Sequence record: NC_106514.1
DNA from: Escherichia phage vB_EcoS_ESCO40
Strand: one strand, 5' to 3'
DNA: 64,000 nucleotides
The notes beneath the pieces are model-generated. The model ran no database searches. It was not told the origin of the DNA and saw only the letters and a program-made list of their open reading frames with translations. The first letter of the stretch is position 1. Each line of letters opens with the position of its first letter. Below, piece by piece: positions 2,622-36,059 of the stretch. The translations under genes were made by a program, and so were the position numbers.

Positions 2622-3060
2622 TACTTATCTCCATTCTTAGCTTTGAAAACTTATTATACCAAACTATATGATTATCGTCAATTACAAATTTATGGTAACA
2701 TGCTGGTACGGTATAAATTCCATAATCCGTGACACGCTGCACAACCTTGTGTGCACACAGTCGACAACCATGCCCTTCTAAATGAGATCTAGCAGTTTGC
2801 CAGTAATAACCATCATGATCTGGACAATAAATCTCGACTTGCTGCTGCATTGTTTTATAATTTACACGCTCATACCCAAAGAAAGCCCCATGAGCTGCAA
2901 CGGCTTTCTTGATAAATATAAGGTTTAGTGCTTCTTGTTGAAAGTCGGGATGTAGCTGCTTAATCTTAGTTCTATTAATAGATCCATCCGATTTGATGAA
3001 CCTATTTATTGGAAAGTTGTTAGCTTCCTCGATTAATAATTCATTTACTTTCTCTCTCAT
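2614..3060 (-). CDS. hypothetical Cys/His-containing protein (about 148 aa)
   Basis: ORF track gives 2614-3162; I place the start at the ATG at 3060, directly after the stop of the upstream 67-aa gene; start uncertain. Confidence 0.45.
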   Translation of the reverse strand: MREKVNELLIEEANNFPINRFIKSDGSINRTKIKQLHPDFQQEALNLIFIKKAVAAHGAFFGYERVNYKTMQQQVEIYCPDHDGYYWQTARSHLEGHGCRLCAHKVVQRVTDYGIYTVPACYHKFVIDDNHIVWYNKFSKLRMEISSE

Positions 3061-3061
3061 A

Positions 3062-3265
3062 TTAGATACTCTCACAACTAAGGTGGAAACATTCGTAAGC
3101 ATCCCCAGTAAACTCTTTATCTTGTAGTAAACACTTAGCCTGGTCTTCCGGTACTCCAGCATCTAATAATTGTTGTTTATTTGGCTTTTCAGCGAATACT
3201 TTTACAAAATACTCACCATCTTGATTATACTCATTTATATCTCTAGTAAGGACATATACTTGCAT
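3062..3265 (-). CDS. hypothetical protein (67 aa)
   Basis: RBS AAGGAAC 5 nt before ATG; preceded by terminator hairpin. Confidence 0.5.
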   Translation of the reverse strand: MQVYVLTRDINEYNQDGEYFVKVFAEKPNKQQLLDAGVPEDQAKCLLQDKEFTGDAYECFHLSCESI

Positions 3266-3283
3266 TTGAAGTTCCTTGAAAAC

Positions 3284-3314
3284 ATAAAAGGCCAGAACAA
3301 TTAAGTCCTGGCCT
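3284..3314 (-). terminator. intrinsic terminator hairpin
   Basis: aggccag / ctggcct stem followed on minus strand by U-rich tract. Confidence 0.5.
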
Positions 3315-3321
3315 CCTAAAA

Positions 3322-3693
3322 TTAATGAAGTTGTTTACCACTTCTTAACATAGTGGCCGTTTCCATAAGACCTAGCGTAGCATCACGCTTATTGATCTGT
3401 TTACCAAGTTCATCAGTACGTTTACTGATGTAAGCATTAATAGCCATATTCATAGCTGTAGCGAGATCTTCTTTGGTTATCTCTTCATCATCTAAAGCTA
3501 ATTTAGCCAAAGAATCAAATGTGCTAGAGAGTCCTATAAGATCTGAGGTTTCTCCAGCCAAAATAGGATTAATATTATCTACTGTTACTTCTAGCATGGA
3601 GTTGACAATATCTTCACCATCTATTAGACCAGTTTCAATATTACTCTCCCACTCCTTCATCTGCTCCAATAATGGATTTTTCTTTTCTGTCAT
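3322..3693 (-). CDS. hypothetical acidic protein
   Basis: ORF 3322-3759 in track; RBS CAGGAAACC precedes internal ATG at 3693 (MTEKK...). Confidence 0.45.
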   Translation of the reverse strand: MTEKKNPLLEQMKEWESNIETGLIDGEDIVNSMLEVTVDNINPILAGETSDLIGLSSTFDSLAKLALDDEEITKEDLATAMNMAINAYISKRTDELGKQINKRDATLGLMETATMLRSGKQLH

Positions 3694-18231: not shown

Positions 18232-18306
18232 TGGTGCTCCCACTAGGAATCGAACCCAGCTCAGATGCTTACAAGGCAACTGCATCGCCAACAATGCTTT
18301 AGGAGC
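18232..18306 (-). tRNA. tRNA-Thr (anticodon UGU)
   Basis: Loop CTTGTAA, T-arm CTGGG-TTCGATT-CCTAG, CCA encoded; one mismatch in anticodon stem. Confidence 0.6.
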
Positions 18307-20443: not shown

Positions 20444-20517
20444 TGGTGGAGAAAGAGGGAGTTGAACCCTCGTCTTCTGCGTGCAAAGCAGATGTTCTAC
20501 CATTAAACTATATCCCC
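20444..20517 (-). tRNA. tRNA-Ala (anticodon UGC)
   Basis: G3:U70 wobble, A73, stem TCTGC/GCAGA, loop TTTGCAC. Confidence 0.75.
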
Positions 20518-20755
20518 AAATTCTTTAGTTTACTAAGGCTATTAGCTCGGCGTAACTACAGCACCTTCGCTTCGAGCGGAAGGAACCGCGTCATCTCGCA
20601 AACCCGATACACTATTCAGTTGCCGCTGAATCTAGTGGACTAATCTAGAACCTCTCCCAAATAGTAGGGATCGTGCTTTTTGGCAGCCAGTCCTAGGTCG
20701 AGCTAATACCTTAGTGAACTATGATGAGGATTTCTCCTCATCAATTTATATAAAT

Positions 20756-20784
20756 ATTATAACAAGAAATTAAGCATCAAGCAA
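20756..20784 (-). promoter_or_regulatory. sigma70-type promoter driving tRNA operon
   Basis: TTGCTT-17-TATAAT; no ORF downstream, only leader and tRNAs. Confidence 0.6.
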
Positions 20785-20802
20785 ATGAGTTTTTCTTGAA
20801 AT

Positions 20803-20878
20803 TGGTAGCGGGTTCCAGTACTGCCCTGGACTTACTTAGCTTATGAGACTAAGAAGAACTCTATGCCTCCCACCCGCA
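20803..20878 (-). tRNA. degenerate tRNA-like element (CAU anticodon loop, non-canonical T-loop)
   Basis: 76 nt with CCA, loop CTCATAA, 1:72 mismatch, T-loop GGCAGTA lacks TTC, weak D-stem. Confidence 0.3.
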
Positions 20879-20884
20879 ATTGTT

Positions 20885-20960
20885 TGGTCAGTGCGGCAGG
20901 ACTCGAACCTGCGACCCGAATCATCCAAGGATCCCACGCTACCAACTGCGCTACGCACTG
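20885..20960 (-). tRNA. tRNA-Pro (anticodon UGG)
   Basis: C1:G72 as in bacterial tRNA-Pro, loop CTTGGAT, T-arm GCAGG-TTCGAGT-CCTGC. Confidence 0.75.
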
Positions 20961-22056: not shown

Positions 22057-22157
22057 GCTTGTTTCCTCAGTTATTAACGAAAATGGTATCTGTGGCTGAA
22101 TTCGATGTCAGCAATGATAGCTGGTTGGCTACCGGTTTACTTAACTCTACACAGAAT

Positions 22158-22240
22158 TTGGCGGGCCGTGTAGGATTCGAACCTACGTTGTCTTTCGACA
22201 TGGATTAACAGTCCACCGCCAAACCGCTTGGCTAACGACC
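22158..22240 (-). tRNA. tRNA with Asn anticodon (GUU) and a 13-nt variable arm
   Basis: Loop CTGTTAA, perfect T-arm GTAGG-TTCGAAT-CCTAC, variable region GTCGAAAGACAAC forming a GAAA-capped mini-hairpin; 83 nt. Confidence 0.5.
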
Positions 22241-22393
22241 CTAAATTTATATTGCTGACTAGGATTTTCACCTAGACGGAGTTAGCACCGTAGCGTGTAG
22301 CGGCATACCTCTCCAAACCGTGCCTCATCTTTCAATTACGGAGACAGTGTTCCTACGCGTGCCTGAATTGATTTAACAATTCTTTCAGCAAAT

Positions 22394-22469
22394 TGGACGA
22401 CCGCATGAGATTTGAACTCACATAAAAAGGATTTGCAATCCTTCGCCTAAGCCATTCAGCCAACGGTCG
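22394..22469 (-). tRNA. tRNA-Cys (anticodon GCA)
   Basis: Stem AAGGA/TCCTT, loop TTGCAAA, T-loop TTCAAAT. Confidence 0.7.
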
Positions 22470-22647
22470 GTTTATCTTGTTTTTCGAGATCTTCAAATTC
22501 TAAATCGTTGAAGTTCCCTAGAGTACGTGTATAGAACCCGTCTCCTGAGTCATAGCCTGATTTACCGCAATCGCACATTTTAAATTCGCGCAGATGTGTG
22601 AAAATATGTTCAGAACCACAACACTTAAATCTAACTAATCGTTTCAT
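22456..22647 (-). CDS. small zinc-ribbon protein (63 aa)
   Basis: CC...C..C pattern; ORF behind promoter. Confidence 0.45.
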   Translation of the reverse strand: MKRLVRFKCCGSEHIFTHLREFKMCDCGKSGYDSGDGFYTRTLGNFNDLEFEDLEKQDKPTVG

Positions 22648-22675
22648 TAGCTTCTCCAGTTCAATTTATGTAATT

Positions 22676-22704
22676 ATTATATAGAACTTTTGGAAACTAA
22701 GCAA
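22676..22704 (-). promoter_or_regulatory. sigma70-type early promoter (T5 family)
   Basis: TTGCTT-17-TATAAT. Confidence 0.6.
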
Positions 22705-24095: not shown

Positions 24096-24172
24096 TGGTA
24101 GGGGTGGTGGGATTCGAACCCACAAAACCTGAATTTTAAGTCCAGTACCTATGCCAATTCGATTACACCCCC
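24096..24172 (-). tRNA. tRNA with Leu anticodon (UAA), class I architecture
   Basis: 77 nt, loop CTTAAAA, perfect T-arm GTGGG-TTCGAAT-CCCAC, A73, short 5-nt variable loop. Confidence 0.5.
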
Positions 24173-24678: not shown

Positions 24679-24756
24679 TGGTGGCTCCCCGAGGATTCGA
24701 ACCTACGTACCTTCCGGTTATGAGCCGGGTGCTCATACCATATGAGCTTGAGAACC
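24679..24756 (-). tRNA. tRNA with CAU anticodon (elongator Met or Ile2)
   Basis: Loop CTCATAA, acceptor GGTTCTC/GGGAGCC with two G-U pairs, A73; T-stem weak (3 bp). Confidence 0.45.
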
Positions 24757-28456: not shown

Positions 28457-29253
28457 TTTAAGTATTTTTAAGAACTCTCGTAAAAACTCTTAAAAATACA
28501 GACGATACCGGGAGAGTCATAAGTCTCACTCATTAAGTATTTCAAGACAAAATACAGTAACGTCTATTATTTTCCAGTTTAAGTCAGGGTGACTTAGTGG
28601 TTATGTCCTGCGGTATATTGAGGACTCGGTTAGGCTTGGGGTCATGACTTCCCGCCTTTTGCTGCTACTCAACAGGAGTTATCGCGAATTACCTGTGCTA
28701 TTGTGCACCATTAGTGACATCTCTCATGTCAGCATTTCCCACTTTGTGGATAGCTTGAAAAACTACTCCGATATGGAGAAAGAACTTCACTATCCTAGAA
28801 TACCTTCTAAAGTTCTTCTTTAGCCTGGACATAGTTAAATCGTAATAAAACTATTCAGCAGACTGGTTGGTTAGTCTGGAACCAACTACCACGTGGTTTA
28901 GGCAGTGCGCAACTAACCTCGGAAGCTTTTACGTTAAAAGCATCAGTTATCCAGTTCTTACCGACCGTAGGATTCGAACCTACATCTTCCACCAGTTACG
29001 GCTTGATAATACCAATTATACTAGGACGGCGGTGTTACTACATAAGTGATTTCCACACCCCACTATTTATAAATTAGAGAAGAGTTTAGGGGAGAGGTTT
29101 CAGACGCCTCATTTTACACGTTCTAGCCACTAACCGGGATTGCCGCCCCCTGTGTACTAGTTTTACAACTAACCCACCGACTCTATTCAATGCGCTCCGG
29201 TTGGGATTCTGCACTCAGCGTAATCGGCTCGCTGTTCCCTAATTTATGAATAT
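28457..29253 (-). other. promoter-driven ORF-free region (candidate structured RNA(s) or degenerate tRNAs)
   Basis: About 0.8 kb without an ORF of 60 aa or more, downstream of promoter 29254-29282 and upstream of tRNA-Arg. Confidence 0.4.
28955..29030 (-). ncRNA. tRNA-like element with perfect T-arm but imperfect acceptor
   Basis: GTAGG-TTCGAAT-CCTAC T-arm; acceptor pairing needs a bulge; anticodon not assignable. Confidence 0.25.
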
Positions 29254-35219: not shown

Positions 35220-36059
35220 TTAAGAGGACATTTTAGCTTTAAGAGCTGGATGAGGATCGTACCCCTCTAAATGGAATGACCAAGCTGCCGTATTATTTTC
35301 TAGTAAGTCGTAAAGATCTACAAACTCTGGCATTACTAGAGTTGGCAGAGGGCGTGGCTTGCGTTTTACCTGTTCTTCTACCTGTTCCATGTGGTCATTA
35401 TAGATATGAGTATCACCGCCACTAAAGATAAGATAACGAGGTTTTAATCCTGTCAGTTTTGCTAATATATGCGTTAATAAAGCATAACTAGCAATATTGA
35501 AAGGTAAACCGAGGAAACAATCCACAGAGCGTTGTGTCCATTTAAGATCTAGGTATCCATCGTTACTTACATAGCACTGGAAGCCATAGTGACATGGTGG
35601 TAATGCCATTTTATCAAGTTCAGCTACGTTCCACGCAGAAACTAGGTGTCTACGACCATGTGGATTATTCTTGAGTCCCTCAATGAGTTCTAAAATCTGA
35701 TCTCGTCCGCCAAAGTTGCGCCATTGTTTACCATATACTGGTCCTAGATTACCATTGTCATAACCCATGCTTATAGCTTGGTCTTCATAATTTGGGGTCC
35801 AGATGGTCCACTGTCCTTCGTCACGACCAAATGTGAATACACGTAGATCATGAAGATTTGTGGAACCAGACAAGAACCATAAAAGTTCTCCTACTACTGA
35901 TTTCCAGGCCAGGCGTTTAGTAGTTACAGCCGGGAACCCTTCACGTAAATCGAACTTAGCATAGGAATCAAAAATTGAAACTGTGCCTGTTCCTGTACGG
36001 TCATTACGGGGTTCACCTAGTAAAATTACATCTGTCAAAATTTTTAAGTATTGTTGCAT
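35220..36059 (-). CDS. thyA: thymidylate synthase
   Basis: Active-site region ALPPCHYGFQCYV and YGKQWR motifs. Confidence 0.85.
   Translation of the reverse strand: MQQYLKILTDVILLGEPRNDRTGTGTVSIFDSYAKFDLREGFPAVTTKRLAWKSVVGELLWFLSGSTNLHDLRVFTFGRDEGQWTIWTPNYEDQAISMGYDNGNLGPVYGKQWRNFGGRDQILELIEGLKNNPHGRRHLVSAWNVAELDKMALPPCHYGFQCYVSNDGYLDLKWTQRSVDCFLGLPFNIASYALLTHILAKLTGLKPRYLIFSGGDTHIYNDHMEQVEEQVKRKPRPLPTLVMPEFVDLYDLLENNTAAWSFHLEGYDPHPALKAKMSS

What the first reader, a model, noticed from the sequence alone, without database searches (positions are those of the whole stretch)
22158..22240. tRNA with Asn anticodon but a long variable arm
The anticodon loop CTGTTAA gives GUU (Asn), yet the gene is 83 nt with a 13-nt variable region forming a GAAA-capped mini-hairpin; it also has a 4-bp D-stem, unlike the 3-bp D-stems of the class II Ser tRNAs in this array. 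Bacterial Asn tRNAs are class I as far as I know. A single base change from the Tyr anticodon GUA would give this; it may be an identity-switched or unusual decoder.
Basis: partly seen in the sequence, partly recalled or inferred. Interest (0 to 1): 0.5.

Follow-up and report, generated by a model that had tools for sequence, protein, structure and literature searches.

The report
Phage asparagine tRNA with extra arm
This T5-like phage carries a real asparagine tRNA with a small extra hairpin arm, a design common in phage tRNA clusters but almost absent from bacterial genomes, and it is not a converted tyrosine tRNA.

Summary
Window 22159-22241 (minus strand, one base off the stated coordinates) is an 83-nt tRNA with anticodon GUU, discriminator G73, encoded CCA, a 4-bp D stem and a 13-nt variable region folding as GUC-GAAA-GAC.

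The Tyr-to-Asn identity-switch idea is not supported. The tRNA has the E. coli Asn identity set (GUU + G73). Tyr tRNAs in the same dataset have A73 in 55 of 56 cases. It shows no special similarity to Tyr or Ser tRNAs. Catalytic Asn residues of the phage thymidylate synthase are encoded by AAT/AAC.

The same gene occurs in about 283 T5-like phage records. An alternative class-I allele, as in T5 and BF23, occurs in about 134. Homologues occur in T4-like Klebsiella/Enterobacter phages.

A pattern scan found 87 viral contigs with long-arm tRNA-Asn (61 unique sequences). Their extra-arm stems vary by compensatory changes and are mostly capped by GNRA loops. The same scan of one genome from each of 185,579 bacterial and archaeal species gave 12 hits, at least six of them in multi-tRNA clusters.

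Best reading: a working phage tRNA-Asn charged by host AsnRS. The extra arm may hinder tRNA-cleaving defence nucleases; that part is inference. The architecture seems undescribed in the literature I could search.

The parts
22159..22241 (-). tRNA-Asn(GUU), 83 nt including the encoded CCA; canonical 7/5 acceptor/T architecture with an extra arm
   Evidence: ARAGORN; Rfam RF00005 59 bits; RNAfold cloverleaf; identical 83-mer in more than 200 phage records
22187..22199 (-). Variable region, tRNA nt 43-55: GUC-GAAA-GAC hairpin followed by AAC. The last base, C48, can form the Levitt pair with G15.
   Evidence: Sequence; fold; compensatory changes in homologues; the A14/G15/C48 combination is the commonest in the family
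22205..22211 (-). Anticodon loop CUGUUAA; anticodon GUU lies at 22207-22209
   Evidence: ARAGORN places the anticodon at tRNA position 33; Rfam alignment
22200..22204 (-). 3' strand of the anticodon stem (UCCAU). Together with U36-A37-A38 it reads UAAUCC, the same sequence as the AriB cleavage site described for E. coli tRNA-Asn (U36AAUC|C41).
   Evidence: Sequence compared with PMC12409363. Cleavage of this tRNA was not tested.
22218..22232 (-). D arm GCCA-AGCGGUU-UGGC: 4-bp stem, 7-nt loop, C at position 16
   Evidence: ARAGORN structure string
22162..22162 (-). Discriminator base G73
   Evidence: Sequence. G73 occurs in 71 of 75 long-arm Asn tRNAs. It is an Asn identity element (PMC9976931).
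22242..22393 (-). 152-nt spacer between tRNA-Cys and tRNA-Asn. It travels with the long-arm allele in T5-like phages and occupies the place of the T5orf172 gene of T5/BF23.
   Evidence: Alignment with BF23; blastn against the held loci finds it only next to T5-like long-arm alleles; no significant fold, z=-1.8; no promoter-like match inside it
22394..22469 (-). tRNA-Cys(GCA), the conserved upstream boundary of the swapped module
   Evidence: ARAGORN; near-identical to BF23
22083..22158 (-). Downstream tRNA-like RNA, annotated 'RNA3' in BF23; the conserved downstream boundary of the swapped module
   Evidence: BF23 annotation; alignment; fold z=-2.8

Best explanation
This is a functional phage-encoded tRNA-Asn that reads AAC and AAU. 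It belongs to a widespread set of tRNA-Asn genes, found in phages and tRNA clusters, that carry a short, stable, usually GNRA-capped extra arm in the variable region.

Shown here: a canonical cloverleaf with a covarying extra helix; anticodon GUU with G73; strict conservation in hundreds of phages; near-absence from ordinary bacterial chromosomes; and its role as one of two alternative tRNA-Asn alleles at the same locus in T5-like phages.

Inferred: it is transcribed with the neighbouring tRNAs, processed by host enzymes, and charged with asparagine by host AsnRS, which in E. coli depends on the anticodon and G73.

More speculative: the extra arm, which begins two nucleotides after position 41, makes the phage tRNA a poorer substrate for tRNA-cleaving defence nucleases while leaving AsnRS and ribosome function intact. 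An example is PARIS AriB, which cuts E. coli tRNA-Asn between positions 40 and 41. On this view it is an alternative to the anticodon-stem substitutions of the T5 class-I allele.
For: tRNA calls and fold.

Covariation in all five helices, including the extra arm. 32 distinct extra-arm stems, with GAAA loops in at least 28 of 61 unique sequences.

Asn identity set GUU + G73: PMC9976931. Asn-type signature across the long-arm group (G73 in 71/75, U1-A72 in 48/75).

Conservation: 283 phage records at 90% identity or more, 206 of them at 99% or more, plus about 222 records at 60-80% identity, those listed being T4-like phages, mostly Klebsiella and Enterobacter. One example is CC31, which shares six of the seven acceptor-stem pairs and has a GUCA-GAAA-UGAC arm.

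Phage enrichment: 87 viral contigs against 12 hits in the bacterial genome collection, at least six of them in multi-tRNA clusters. About 16% of sampled viral tRNA-Asn with this anticodon arm are long-arm, and about 24% of those lying in tRNA arrays.

Allele swap with T5/BF23.

AAY encodes catalytic Asn in the phage ThyA.

Relevance of nucleases: AriB targets E. coli tRNA-Asn at C40|C41, the T5 tRNA-Asn helps rescue phage infection, AriB also reads D-loop U16, and a U16C change impairs cleavage of tRNA-Lys (PMC12409363). The window tRNA keeps UAAUCC but has C16 and the arm.
Against: - No expression, aminoacylation or cleavage data for this tRNA were available.
- AsnRS is a class II synthetase, and by my own recollection such enzymes approach from the variable-loop side. 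Tolerance of an extra arm is assumed from conservation, not shown.
- The nuclease-evasion role is untested. The window phage has no tRNA-Lys(UUU) in its tRNA region, so it would probably remain sensitive to PARIS anyway. That weakens a PARIS-specific selective story.
- The long-arm tRNA-Asn of SP15 did not rescue phages from PrrC170 (PMC11555353), though PrrC170 was rescued only by tRNA-Lys.
- Extra arms also occur at 5-17% in other class-I isotypes of phage loci (Thr, Trp, Cys, His, Ile). The feature may reflect general structural looseness of phage tRNAs rather than an Asn-specific adaptation.
Confidence: 0.72

Rival explanations
1. The extra arm is a selectively near-neutral or purely structural insertion. 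It might, for example, stabilise the tRNA core of rapidly made, under-modified phage tRNAs, with no role in evading defence. The tRNA is simply an ordinary supplementary tRNA-Asn for an AT-rich phage.
For: - Extra arms occur in several other class-I isotypes in phage loci, and many phage tRNA-Leu have lost the long arm (51 of 132 unique). This suggests relaxed constraints on architecture.
- GNRA and UUCG caps are what selection for bare stability of a very short stem would give.
- The phage is 39% G+C and uses AAT more than AAC.
Against: - The arm persists with compensatory changes across very divergent phage lineages, from T5-like and T4-like to contigs over 300 kb. It is almost absent from bacterial chromosomes. 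A neutral insertion would be expected to decay or vary in presence within lineages.
- The 83-mer is 100% identical in every ≥99% record listed, out of 206 records in that band.
Confidence: 0.3
2. It is an identity-switched class II tRNA, derived from Tyr or Ser and charged by TyrRS or SerRS. It would insert Tyr or Ser at AAY codons, giving recoding or deliberate mistranslation.
For: - It has a long variable arm. The arm size (13 nt, 3-bp stem) is within the range of bacterial-type tRNA-Tyr arms in the dataset.
- SerRS does not read the anticodon, and Ser tRNAs often have G73 (63/102). G1-C72, G2-C71 and G73 are present.
Against: - G73 rather than A73, which occurs in 55/56 Tyr tRNAs here. G73 is listed as an antideterminant against TyrRS.
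- The D stem is 4 bp and the arm has only 3 bp, against 19- and 22-nt arms in the window's own tRNA-Ser.
- There is no sequence affinity to Tyr or Ser.
- The group carries the Asn-specific U1-A72/G73 signature.
- Catalytic Asn codons in ThyA are AAT/AAC and AAY usage is normal.
- T5/BF23 use a class-I tRNA-Asn at the same locus, with near-identical flanking tRNA genes.
Confidence: 0.03
3. It does not work mainly in translation. It acts as a decoy or competitive inhibitor for tRNA-targeting nucleases, or is a decaying pseudo-tRNA.
For: - The PARIS study raises the possibility that over-expressed viral tRNAs inhibit AriB by competition (PMC12409363).
- The window tRNA keeps the host-like UAAUCC site.
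- A relative in phage Bas34 (SelmaRatti) is a chimera with a broken acceptor stem, so such genes can decay.
Against: All four standard helices, the tertiary G15-C48 pair, GUU, G73 and the encoded CCA are intact and maintained by compensatory change. That pattern is expected for a translating tRNA, not for a decoy or pseudogene.
Confidence: 0.06
4. The extra arm is a recognition handle for a dedicated enzyme, for example a phage or host processing, modification or repair factor that must tell phage tRNA-Asn from host tRNA-Asn.
For: The arm has a conserved shape but a variable sequence, as with the synthetase-recognised arms of class II tRNAs. It is found almost only in phages and tRNA arrays.
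Against: The tRNA occurs in unrelated phage families (Demerecviridae, Straboviridae, Phapecoctavirus-like, jumbo contigs), and I did not look for or find a shared accompanying protein gene. In T5-like phages the swapped module contains only a non-coding spacer.
Confidence: 0.08

Closest known systems
Class-I tRNA-Asn(GUU) of E. coli and of phage T5/BF23
   Same: Anticodon GUU, G73 and 7/5 acceptor/T stems. The anticodon loop and three of the five anticodon-stem pairs match E. coli (UGGACUGUUAAUCCA against CGGACUGUUAAUCCG). It sits at the same genomic slot as the T5/BF23 tRNA-Asn, between tRNA-Cys and the RNA3 tRNA-like element.
   Different: The variable region is a 13-nt hairpin rather than 5 nt. 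It has G1-C72 rather than U1-A72. There is no blastn-level similarity to any E. coli tRNA-Asn. The T5 allele has substitutions in the anticodon stem (UAAGUU); the window allele keeps UAAUCC.
Bacterial class II tRNAs (Leu, Ser, Tyr)
   Same: A base-paired extra arm between the anticodon and T arms. About half of the wider long-arm Asn group also has the 3-bp D stem typical of class II.
   Different: The isotype is Asn. The window tRNA has a 4-bp D stem and a minimal 3-bp arm. Its discriminator and 1:72 signature are of the Asn type, not the Tyr type.
allo-tRNAs (Mukai et al. 2017, PMC5389517): long-arm, Ser-like tRNAs with assorted anticodons in bacteria and phages
   Same: A long variable arm combined with an anticodon that does not belong to Leu, Ser or Tyr. 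Found partly in phages (abstract).
   Different: allo-tRNAs are defined by 8/4 or 9/3 acceptor/T configurations. The window tRNA is 7/5. It carries an Asn identity set, not a Ser-like one.
Phage tRNA variants that escape tRNA-targeting immunity (T5 tRNA-Lys/Thr/Asn against PARIS AriB; phage tRNA-Tyr against retron-Eco7 PtuAB)
   Same: A phage-encoded copy of an isotype that a host nuclease targets, differing structurally from the host tRNA (PMC12409363, PMC11555353, PMC10264068).
   Different: The documented escape changes are base substitutions in the anticodon stem-loop or D loop. Here the anticodon stem-loop is host-like and the difference is an added arm. No escape has been demonstrated for this tRNA.

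Membership tests
tRNA (Rfam RF00005) | Cloverleaf covariance-model score above the gathering threshold | tested here: met
   59.0 bits against 29, full-length model match 1-71; ARAGORN call
tRNA-Asn (E. coli AsnRS identity set) | G34-U35-U36 anticodon | tested here: met
   Anticodon GUU at tRNA positions 33-35 of the gene; identity rule from PMC9976931
tRNA-Asn (E. coli AsnRS identity set) | Discriminator G73 | tested here: met
   ...ACGGCCC-G-CCA; G73 in 71/75 long-arm and 98/101 class-I Asn tRNAs
tRNA-Asn (function) | Aminoacylation with asparagine and decoding of AAY | not testable with these tools
   Indirect only: catalytic Asn codons of ThyA are AAT/AAC
Class I tRNA architecture | Variable loop of 4-5 nt without a stem | tested here: not met
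   13-nt variable region with a 3-bp stem and a GAAA loop
Bacterial class II tRNA architecture | Base-paired variable arm of about 10 nt or more | tested here: met
Bacterial class II tRNA architecture | 3-bp D stem with an enlarged D loop; isotype Leu, Ser or Tyr | tested here: not met
   4-bp D stem and 7-nt loop; the anticodon is Asn
tRNA-Tyr (bacterial TyrRS identity) | A73 discriminator and GUA anticodon | tested here: not met
   G73 and GUU; 55 of 56 Tyr tRNAs in the dataset have A73; G73 is listed as an antideterminant for TyrRS
tRNA-Ser (bacterial SerRS identity) | Long variable arm of Ser type (the window's own Ser tRNAs: 19 and 22 nt) plus acceptor features | tested here: inconclusive
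   G73 and G2-C71 are present, but the arm is only 13 nt with 3 bp and the D stem is 4 bp. The arm-length requirement for SerRS rests on my own knowledge, not on a test here.
allo-tRNA | 8/4 or 9/3 acceptor/T-stem configuration | tested here: not met
   7-bp acceptor and 5-bp T stem, both covarying; definition from the PMC5389517 abstract
PARIS AriB substrate | U36-A-A-U-C|C41 sequence at the cleavage site | tested here: met
   The window tRNA reads U36 A37 A38 U39 C40 C41, matching PMC12409363
PARIS AriB substrate | U16 in the D loop contacted by the second monomer; actual cleavage | not testable with these tools
   The window tRNA has C16 in AGCGGUU. U16C impaired cleavage of tRNA-Lys. No cleavage data exist for this tRNA.

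The most novel reading that the evidence does not exclude
The GNRA-capped extra arm is an anti-defence adaptation. By adding a helix right next to the 3' strand of the anticodon stem, phage tRNA-Asn sterically escapes host tRNA nucleases that cut or dock there, such as PARIS AriB at positions 40/41. It stays chargeable by AsnRS. Long-arm versions of Thr, Trp, Cys, His, Ile, Lys and Glu tRNAs in phage arrays may do the same. This would be a second, architecture-level route of tRNA escape, besides the known anticodon stem-loop substitutions. It would also explain why T5-like phages carry two alternative tRNA-Asn alleles.
Probability: 0.25. Interest if true: 0.75.

Novelty: new variant of a known kind. 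Interest (0 to 1): 0.5.

Why it matters
Textbook bacterial tRNA classification reserves long variable arms for Leu, Ser and Tyr (plus Sec). Here a long-arm tRNA-Asn is the commoner of two alleles in T5-like phages. It also makes up roughly a sixth to a quarter of sampled phage tRNA-Asn sharing this anticodon arm, yet is almost absent from bacterial chromosomes.

This matters for three reasons:
- It shows that AsnRS and the ribosome presumably tolerate an extra arm.
- It affects tRNA annotation and isotype scoring in phage genomes.
- It gives a concrete, testable candidate for how phage tRNAs might evade tRNA-cleaving immunity such as PARIS, for which tRNA-Asn is a documented target.

The gene itself is already annotated as tRNA-Asn in hundreds of GenBank records, so the new element is the architecture and its distribution, not the gene.

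Tried and rejected
1. blastn of the tRNA against 5,426 complete E. coli genomes gave no meaningful homologue, only E≈1-2 matches to tRNA-Lys, Asn and Arg genes. A recent host origin is rejected.

2. Nine literature searches, plus targeted reads of the tRNA identity review, the PARIS, retron and anticodon-loop papers and the Sf14 study, found no description of a long-arm phage tRNA-Asn. The library lacks most subscription journals, so older T5 tRNA papers could not be checked.

3. I tried to use phage Bas34 as a natural test, because the PARIS paper says its own tRNA-Asn does not suffice. Bas34 = SelmaRatti, MZ501103. Its tRNA-Asn is a long-arm derivative fused to a foreign 3' end, with a non-complementary acceptor stem. 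It is uninformative about the arm.

4. The covariance-model search with R1 matched every tRNA in the loci, and alignment A3 mixed isotypes. It was not used. The covariation figures come from A2 and from Python parsing instead.

I used the merged scan as a sample instead.

6. The 152-nt spacer showed no Rfam match reaching a gathering score, no significant fold and no promoter-like match.

7. My first regular-expression parse of the ARAGORN bracket strings captured only 205 of 1,852 tRNAs. It was replaced by anchor-based parsing.

8. tRNAscan-SE isotype models are not available here. Nearest-neighbour and signature statistics were used as a weaker substitute.

Full report
**What is there.** The window comes from a T5-like phage (Demerecviridae). 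A 3-kb piece around the finding matches 1,047 phage records, mostly Escherichia and Salmonella phages such as BF23, SP15 and VSe12. ARAGORN finds 18 tRNA genes on the minus strand between 17.6 and 28.5 kb. One is tRNA-Asn(gtt) at 22159-22241, 83 nt. Rfam's tRNA model scores it 59.0 bits (gathering score 29) and treats ten bases of the variable region as an insertion. The RNA reads GGGUCGU UA GCCA AGCGGUU UGGC G GUGGA CUGUUAA UCCAU GUCGAAAGACAAC GUAGG UUCGAAU CCUAC ACGGCCC G CCA. RNAfold returns the cloverleaf plus a GUC-GAAA-GAC hairpin as both the minimum-energy and the centroid structure (-30.5 kcal/mol, z=-2.3). The coordinates are one base off.

**Is the extra helix real?** I aligned twelve diverse homologues (A2) and counted pairs on the five-helix structure. 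97.6% of cells pair, against 36-53% when the 3' partners are slid by 1 to 3 columns. Seventeen of 25 pairs show changes on both sides, including three of the four pairs of the extra arm. Among 61 unique long-arm tRNA-Asn sequences from viral contigs there are 32 different extra-arm stems. The loop is GAAA in at least 28, and otherwise mostly GCAA, GAGA or UUCG. Fifty of the 61 have a stem of at least 3 bp, against a mean of 31.9 (maximum 41) after shuffling the variable regions. The helix is under selection for shape, not sequence.

**Identity.**
- E. coli AsnRS identity rests on the three anticodon bases and G73. G73 is also listed as an antideterminant against TyrRS and LeuRS (PMC9976931). 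The window tRNA has GUU and G73.
- Across all tRNAs I parsed from the fetched loci, long-arm Asn tRNAs have G73 in 71/75 and U1-A72 in 48/75. That resembles class-I Asn tRNAs (98/101 and 83/101).
- Tyr tRNAs have A73 in 55/56 and U1-A72 in 1/56.
- With the anticodon arm excluded, the window tRNA is closest to Lys and class-I Asn tRNAs (mean of the top five scores 35.6 and 35.4 out of 50). Ser (33.2) and Tyr (32.7) rank lower. The phage's own tRNA-Tyr matches only 19/35 core positions. These margins are small, so I conclude only that a Tyr origin has no support.
- One lineage, on Phapecoctavirus-like contigs of about 147 kb, has an almost E. coli-type tRNA-Asn backbone. It has the same anticodon arm, T loop and D stem and a near-identical D loop, with GAGCGAAAGCUCUAU in place of AUGUC. 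This looks like a hairpin inserted into a class-I Asn tRNA.
- The phage needs AAY to mean Asn. In its thymidylate synthase (window 35220-36059, minus strand; E=1e-91 to the PDB chain 1tis_A, thymidylate synthase) the conserved SAWN and PFNIAS asparagines are encoded by AAC and AAT. AAY makes up 5.0% of codons in the large ORFs.

**Distribution.**
- The exact or near-exact 83-mer is present in 283 phage records at 90% identity or more, 206 of them at 99% or more.
- A further roughly 222 records match at 60-80% identity; those listed are T4-like phages, mostly Klebsiella and Enterobacter.
- In CC31 (Straboviridae) the homologue shares six of the seven acceptor-stem pairs and has a 4-bp GUCA-GAAA-UGAC arm.
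- A pattern for the Asn anticodon arm followed by a long variable region and a standard T loop found 87 IMG/VR contigs. ARAGORN called tRNA-Asn in 85 of them. They come from T5-like, T4-like and jumbo-sized contigs of up to 476 kb.
- The same pattern found only 12 places in one genome from each of 185,579 bacterial and archaeal species. Three lie in actinomycete arrays of 32-36 tRNA genes per 8 kb. Three more lie in clusters of 21, 10 and 7 tRNA genes on MAG contigs. Four are lone long-arm Asn genes. In two, ARAGORN called no tRNA-Asn.
Counting only loci with three or more tRNAs, the split was 11 long-arm against 34 class-I (24%).
- These percentages apply only to tRNA-Asn with the GGACUGUUAAUCC anticodon arm and a GGUUCGARUCC T arm.

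**Two alleles in T5-like phages.** BF23, and by its annotation T5, carry a different tRNA-Asn at exactly this slot. It is a 78-nt class-I tRNA with an irregular anticodon stem. Aligning the window with BF23 shows near-identity through tRNA-Cys and again from the T loop/CCA end of tRNA-Asn into the downstream tRNA-like 'RNA3'. Everything between is replaced. BF23 has a 172-aa ORF with the T5orf172/MUG113 domain overlapping its class-I tRNA-Asn. The window has a 152-nt non-coding spacer plus the long-arm tRNA. The spacer is found only next to T5-like long-arm alleles among the held loci. In the phage collection the T5-type allele is present in 134 records at 90% identity or more. The long-arm allele is therefore about twice as common.

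**How it probably works.** Shown: an intact, covarying, strongly conserved tRNA with an Asn identity set. Inferred: co-transcription with neighbouring tRNAs, since no promoter-like site lies in the spacer; processing by host enzymes; and charging by host AsnRS.

Why the arm? A plausible lead comes from PARIS. [quoted passage not shown] A second AriB monomer is modelled on D-loop U16-U17, and a U16C change impairs cleavage of tRNA-Lys (PMC12409363).

The T5 class-I tRNA-Asn reads UAAGUU at the site. The window tRNA keeps UAAUCC. It has C16, and its extra helix starts two nucleotides after position 41. The two alleles could therefore be alternative answers to the same pressure. This is inference only.

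Two points count against a PARIS-specific story:
- This phage has no tRNA-Lys(UUU) in its tRNA region.
- Extra arms also occur in other class-I isotypes in phage loci. In loci not selected for arm length the rates are Thr 4/47, His 3/22, Ile 4/23 and Trp 2/23. Many phage tRNA-Leu have lost their arm.

SP15, whose tRNA-Asn lies in the same 152-nt-spacer arrangement as the window's long-arm allele, supplied the tRNA-Asn used as a control in the retron study. It did not rescue phages from PrrC170 (PMC11555353). That says little, because only tRNA-Lys rescued from that system.

**Comparison with known kinds.** It is a tRNA and, by its identity elements, a tRNA-Asn. It fails the class-I definition because of its variable region, and fails the bacterial class II definition because of its isotype and its 4-bp D stem. 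It is not an allo-tRNA, because its acceptor/T configuration is 7/5 (PMC5389517). I found no paper describing long-arm tRNA-Asn in the searchable library. Many GenBank records simply annotate it as tRNA-Asn.

**Verdict.** The Tyr-derived identity-switch interpretation is not supported. The object is best described as a working phage tRNA-Asn of an unusual, phage-enriched, extra-arm architecture. It is a new variant of a known kind, of moderate interest, with a testable but unproven link to evasion of tRNA-targeting immunity.

Noticed in passing
window 22242-22393; L001 (BF23) 2925-3443: The tRNA-Asn slot is a swapped module. T5/BF23 have a 172-aa T5orf172/MUG113-domain ORF overlapping a class-I tRNA-Asn. 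The window has a 152-nt, relatively GC-rich non-coding spacer plus the long-arm tRNA. Homology resumes exactly at tRNA-Cys and at the T-loop/CCA end of tRNA-Asn.
   Followed up: partly
L223 (phage SelmaRatti = Bas34, MZ501103) about 22599-22681: The annotated tRNA-Asn of Bas34 is a long-arm derivative. It shares the window tRNA's D stem and extra arm. Its 3' part is foreign and its acceptor strands (GGGUCGU / ACCCGCU) are not complementary, and position 32 is U. It is probably non-functional. This could explain why the PARIS paper found that Bas34's own tRNA-Asn was insufficient.
   Followed up: partly
window 24096-24172 (minus strand) and many viral loci: tRNA-Leu(UAA) here is 77 nt with only a 5-nt variable loop, so it is a class-I-shaped Leu tRNA. 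Among unique phage-locus Leu tRNAs, 51 of 132 lack the long arm.
   Followed up: partly
L094 4198-4287, 5454-5546, 6902-6990; loci L002-L220 in general: Extra arms also occur in other class-I isotypes in phage tRNA arrays. Examples are a 90-nt tRNA-Lys(UUU) with a GGC-GAAA-GCC arm, an 89-nt tRNA-Glu and a 93-nt tRNA-Ile(UAU). Rates of about 5-17% are seen for Thr, Trp, Cys, His and Ile.
   Followed up: partly
L090, L091, L092 (Verrucosispora / Micromonospora chromosomes and contig): Arrays of 32-36 tRNA genes within 8 kb, each containing a 90-nt long-arm tRNA-Asn (UCCGACG...; arm CAGG-NGNA-GCCUGG). They look like mobile or prophage-type tRNA arrays in actinomycetes.
   Followed up: no
window 22083-22158 (minus strand): A tRNA-like element directly downstream of tRNA-Asn, annotated 'RNA3, tRNA-like RNA with unknown functions' in BF23. 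It folds with an acceptor-like stem and two hairpins (z=-2.8) and ends in ACCA.
   Followed up: partly
window 24682-24756 and 28959-29030 (minus strand): Two Rfam tRNA hits (40.3 and 35.5 bits) that ARAGORN missed. The first has a CAU anticodon and corresponds to the BF23 'tRNA-Ile2'. The second has an irregular anticodon region.
   Followed up: no
window 18232-18306 (minus strand) and 20517-20885: The phage's tRNA-Thr(UGU) reads UAAGCA where E. coli has the AriB site UAAUCA, so position 39 is changed. Compared with BF23, the window lacks the Val, Lys, fMet, Gly, Phe and Trp tRNA genes.
   Followed up: no
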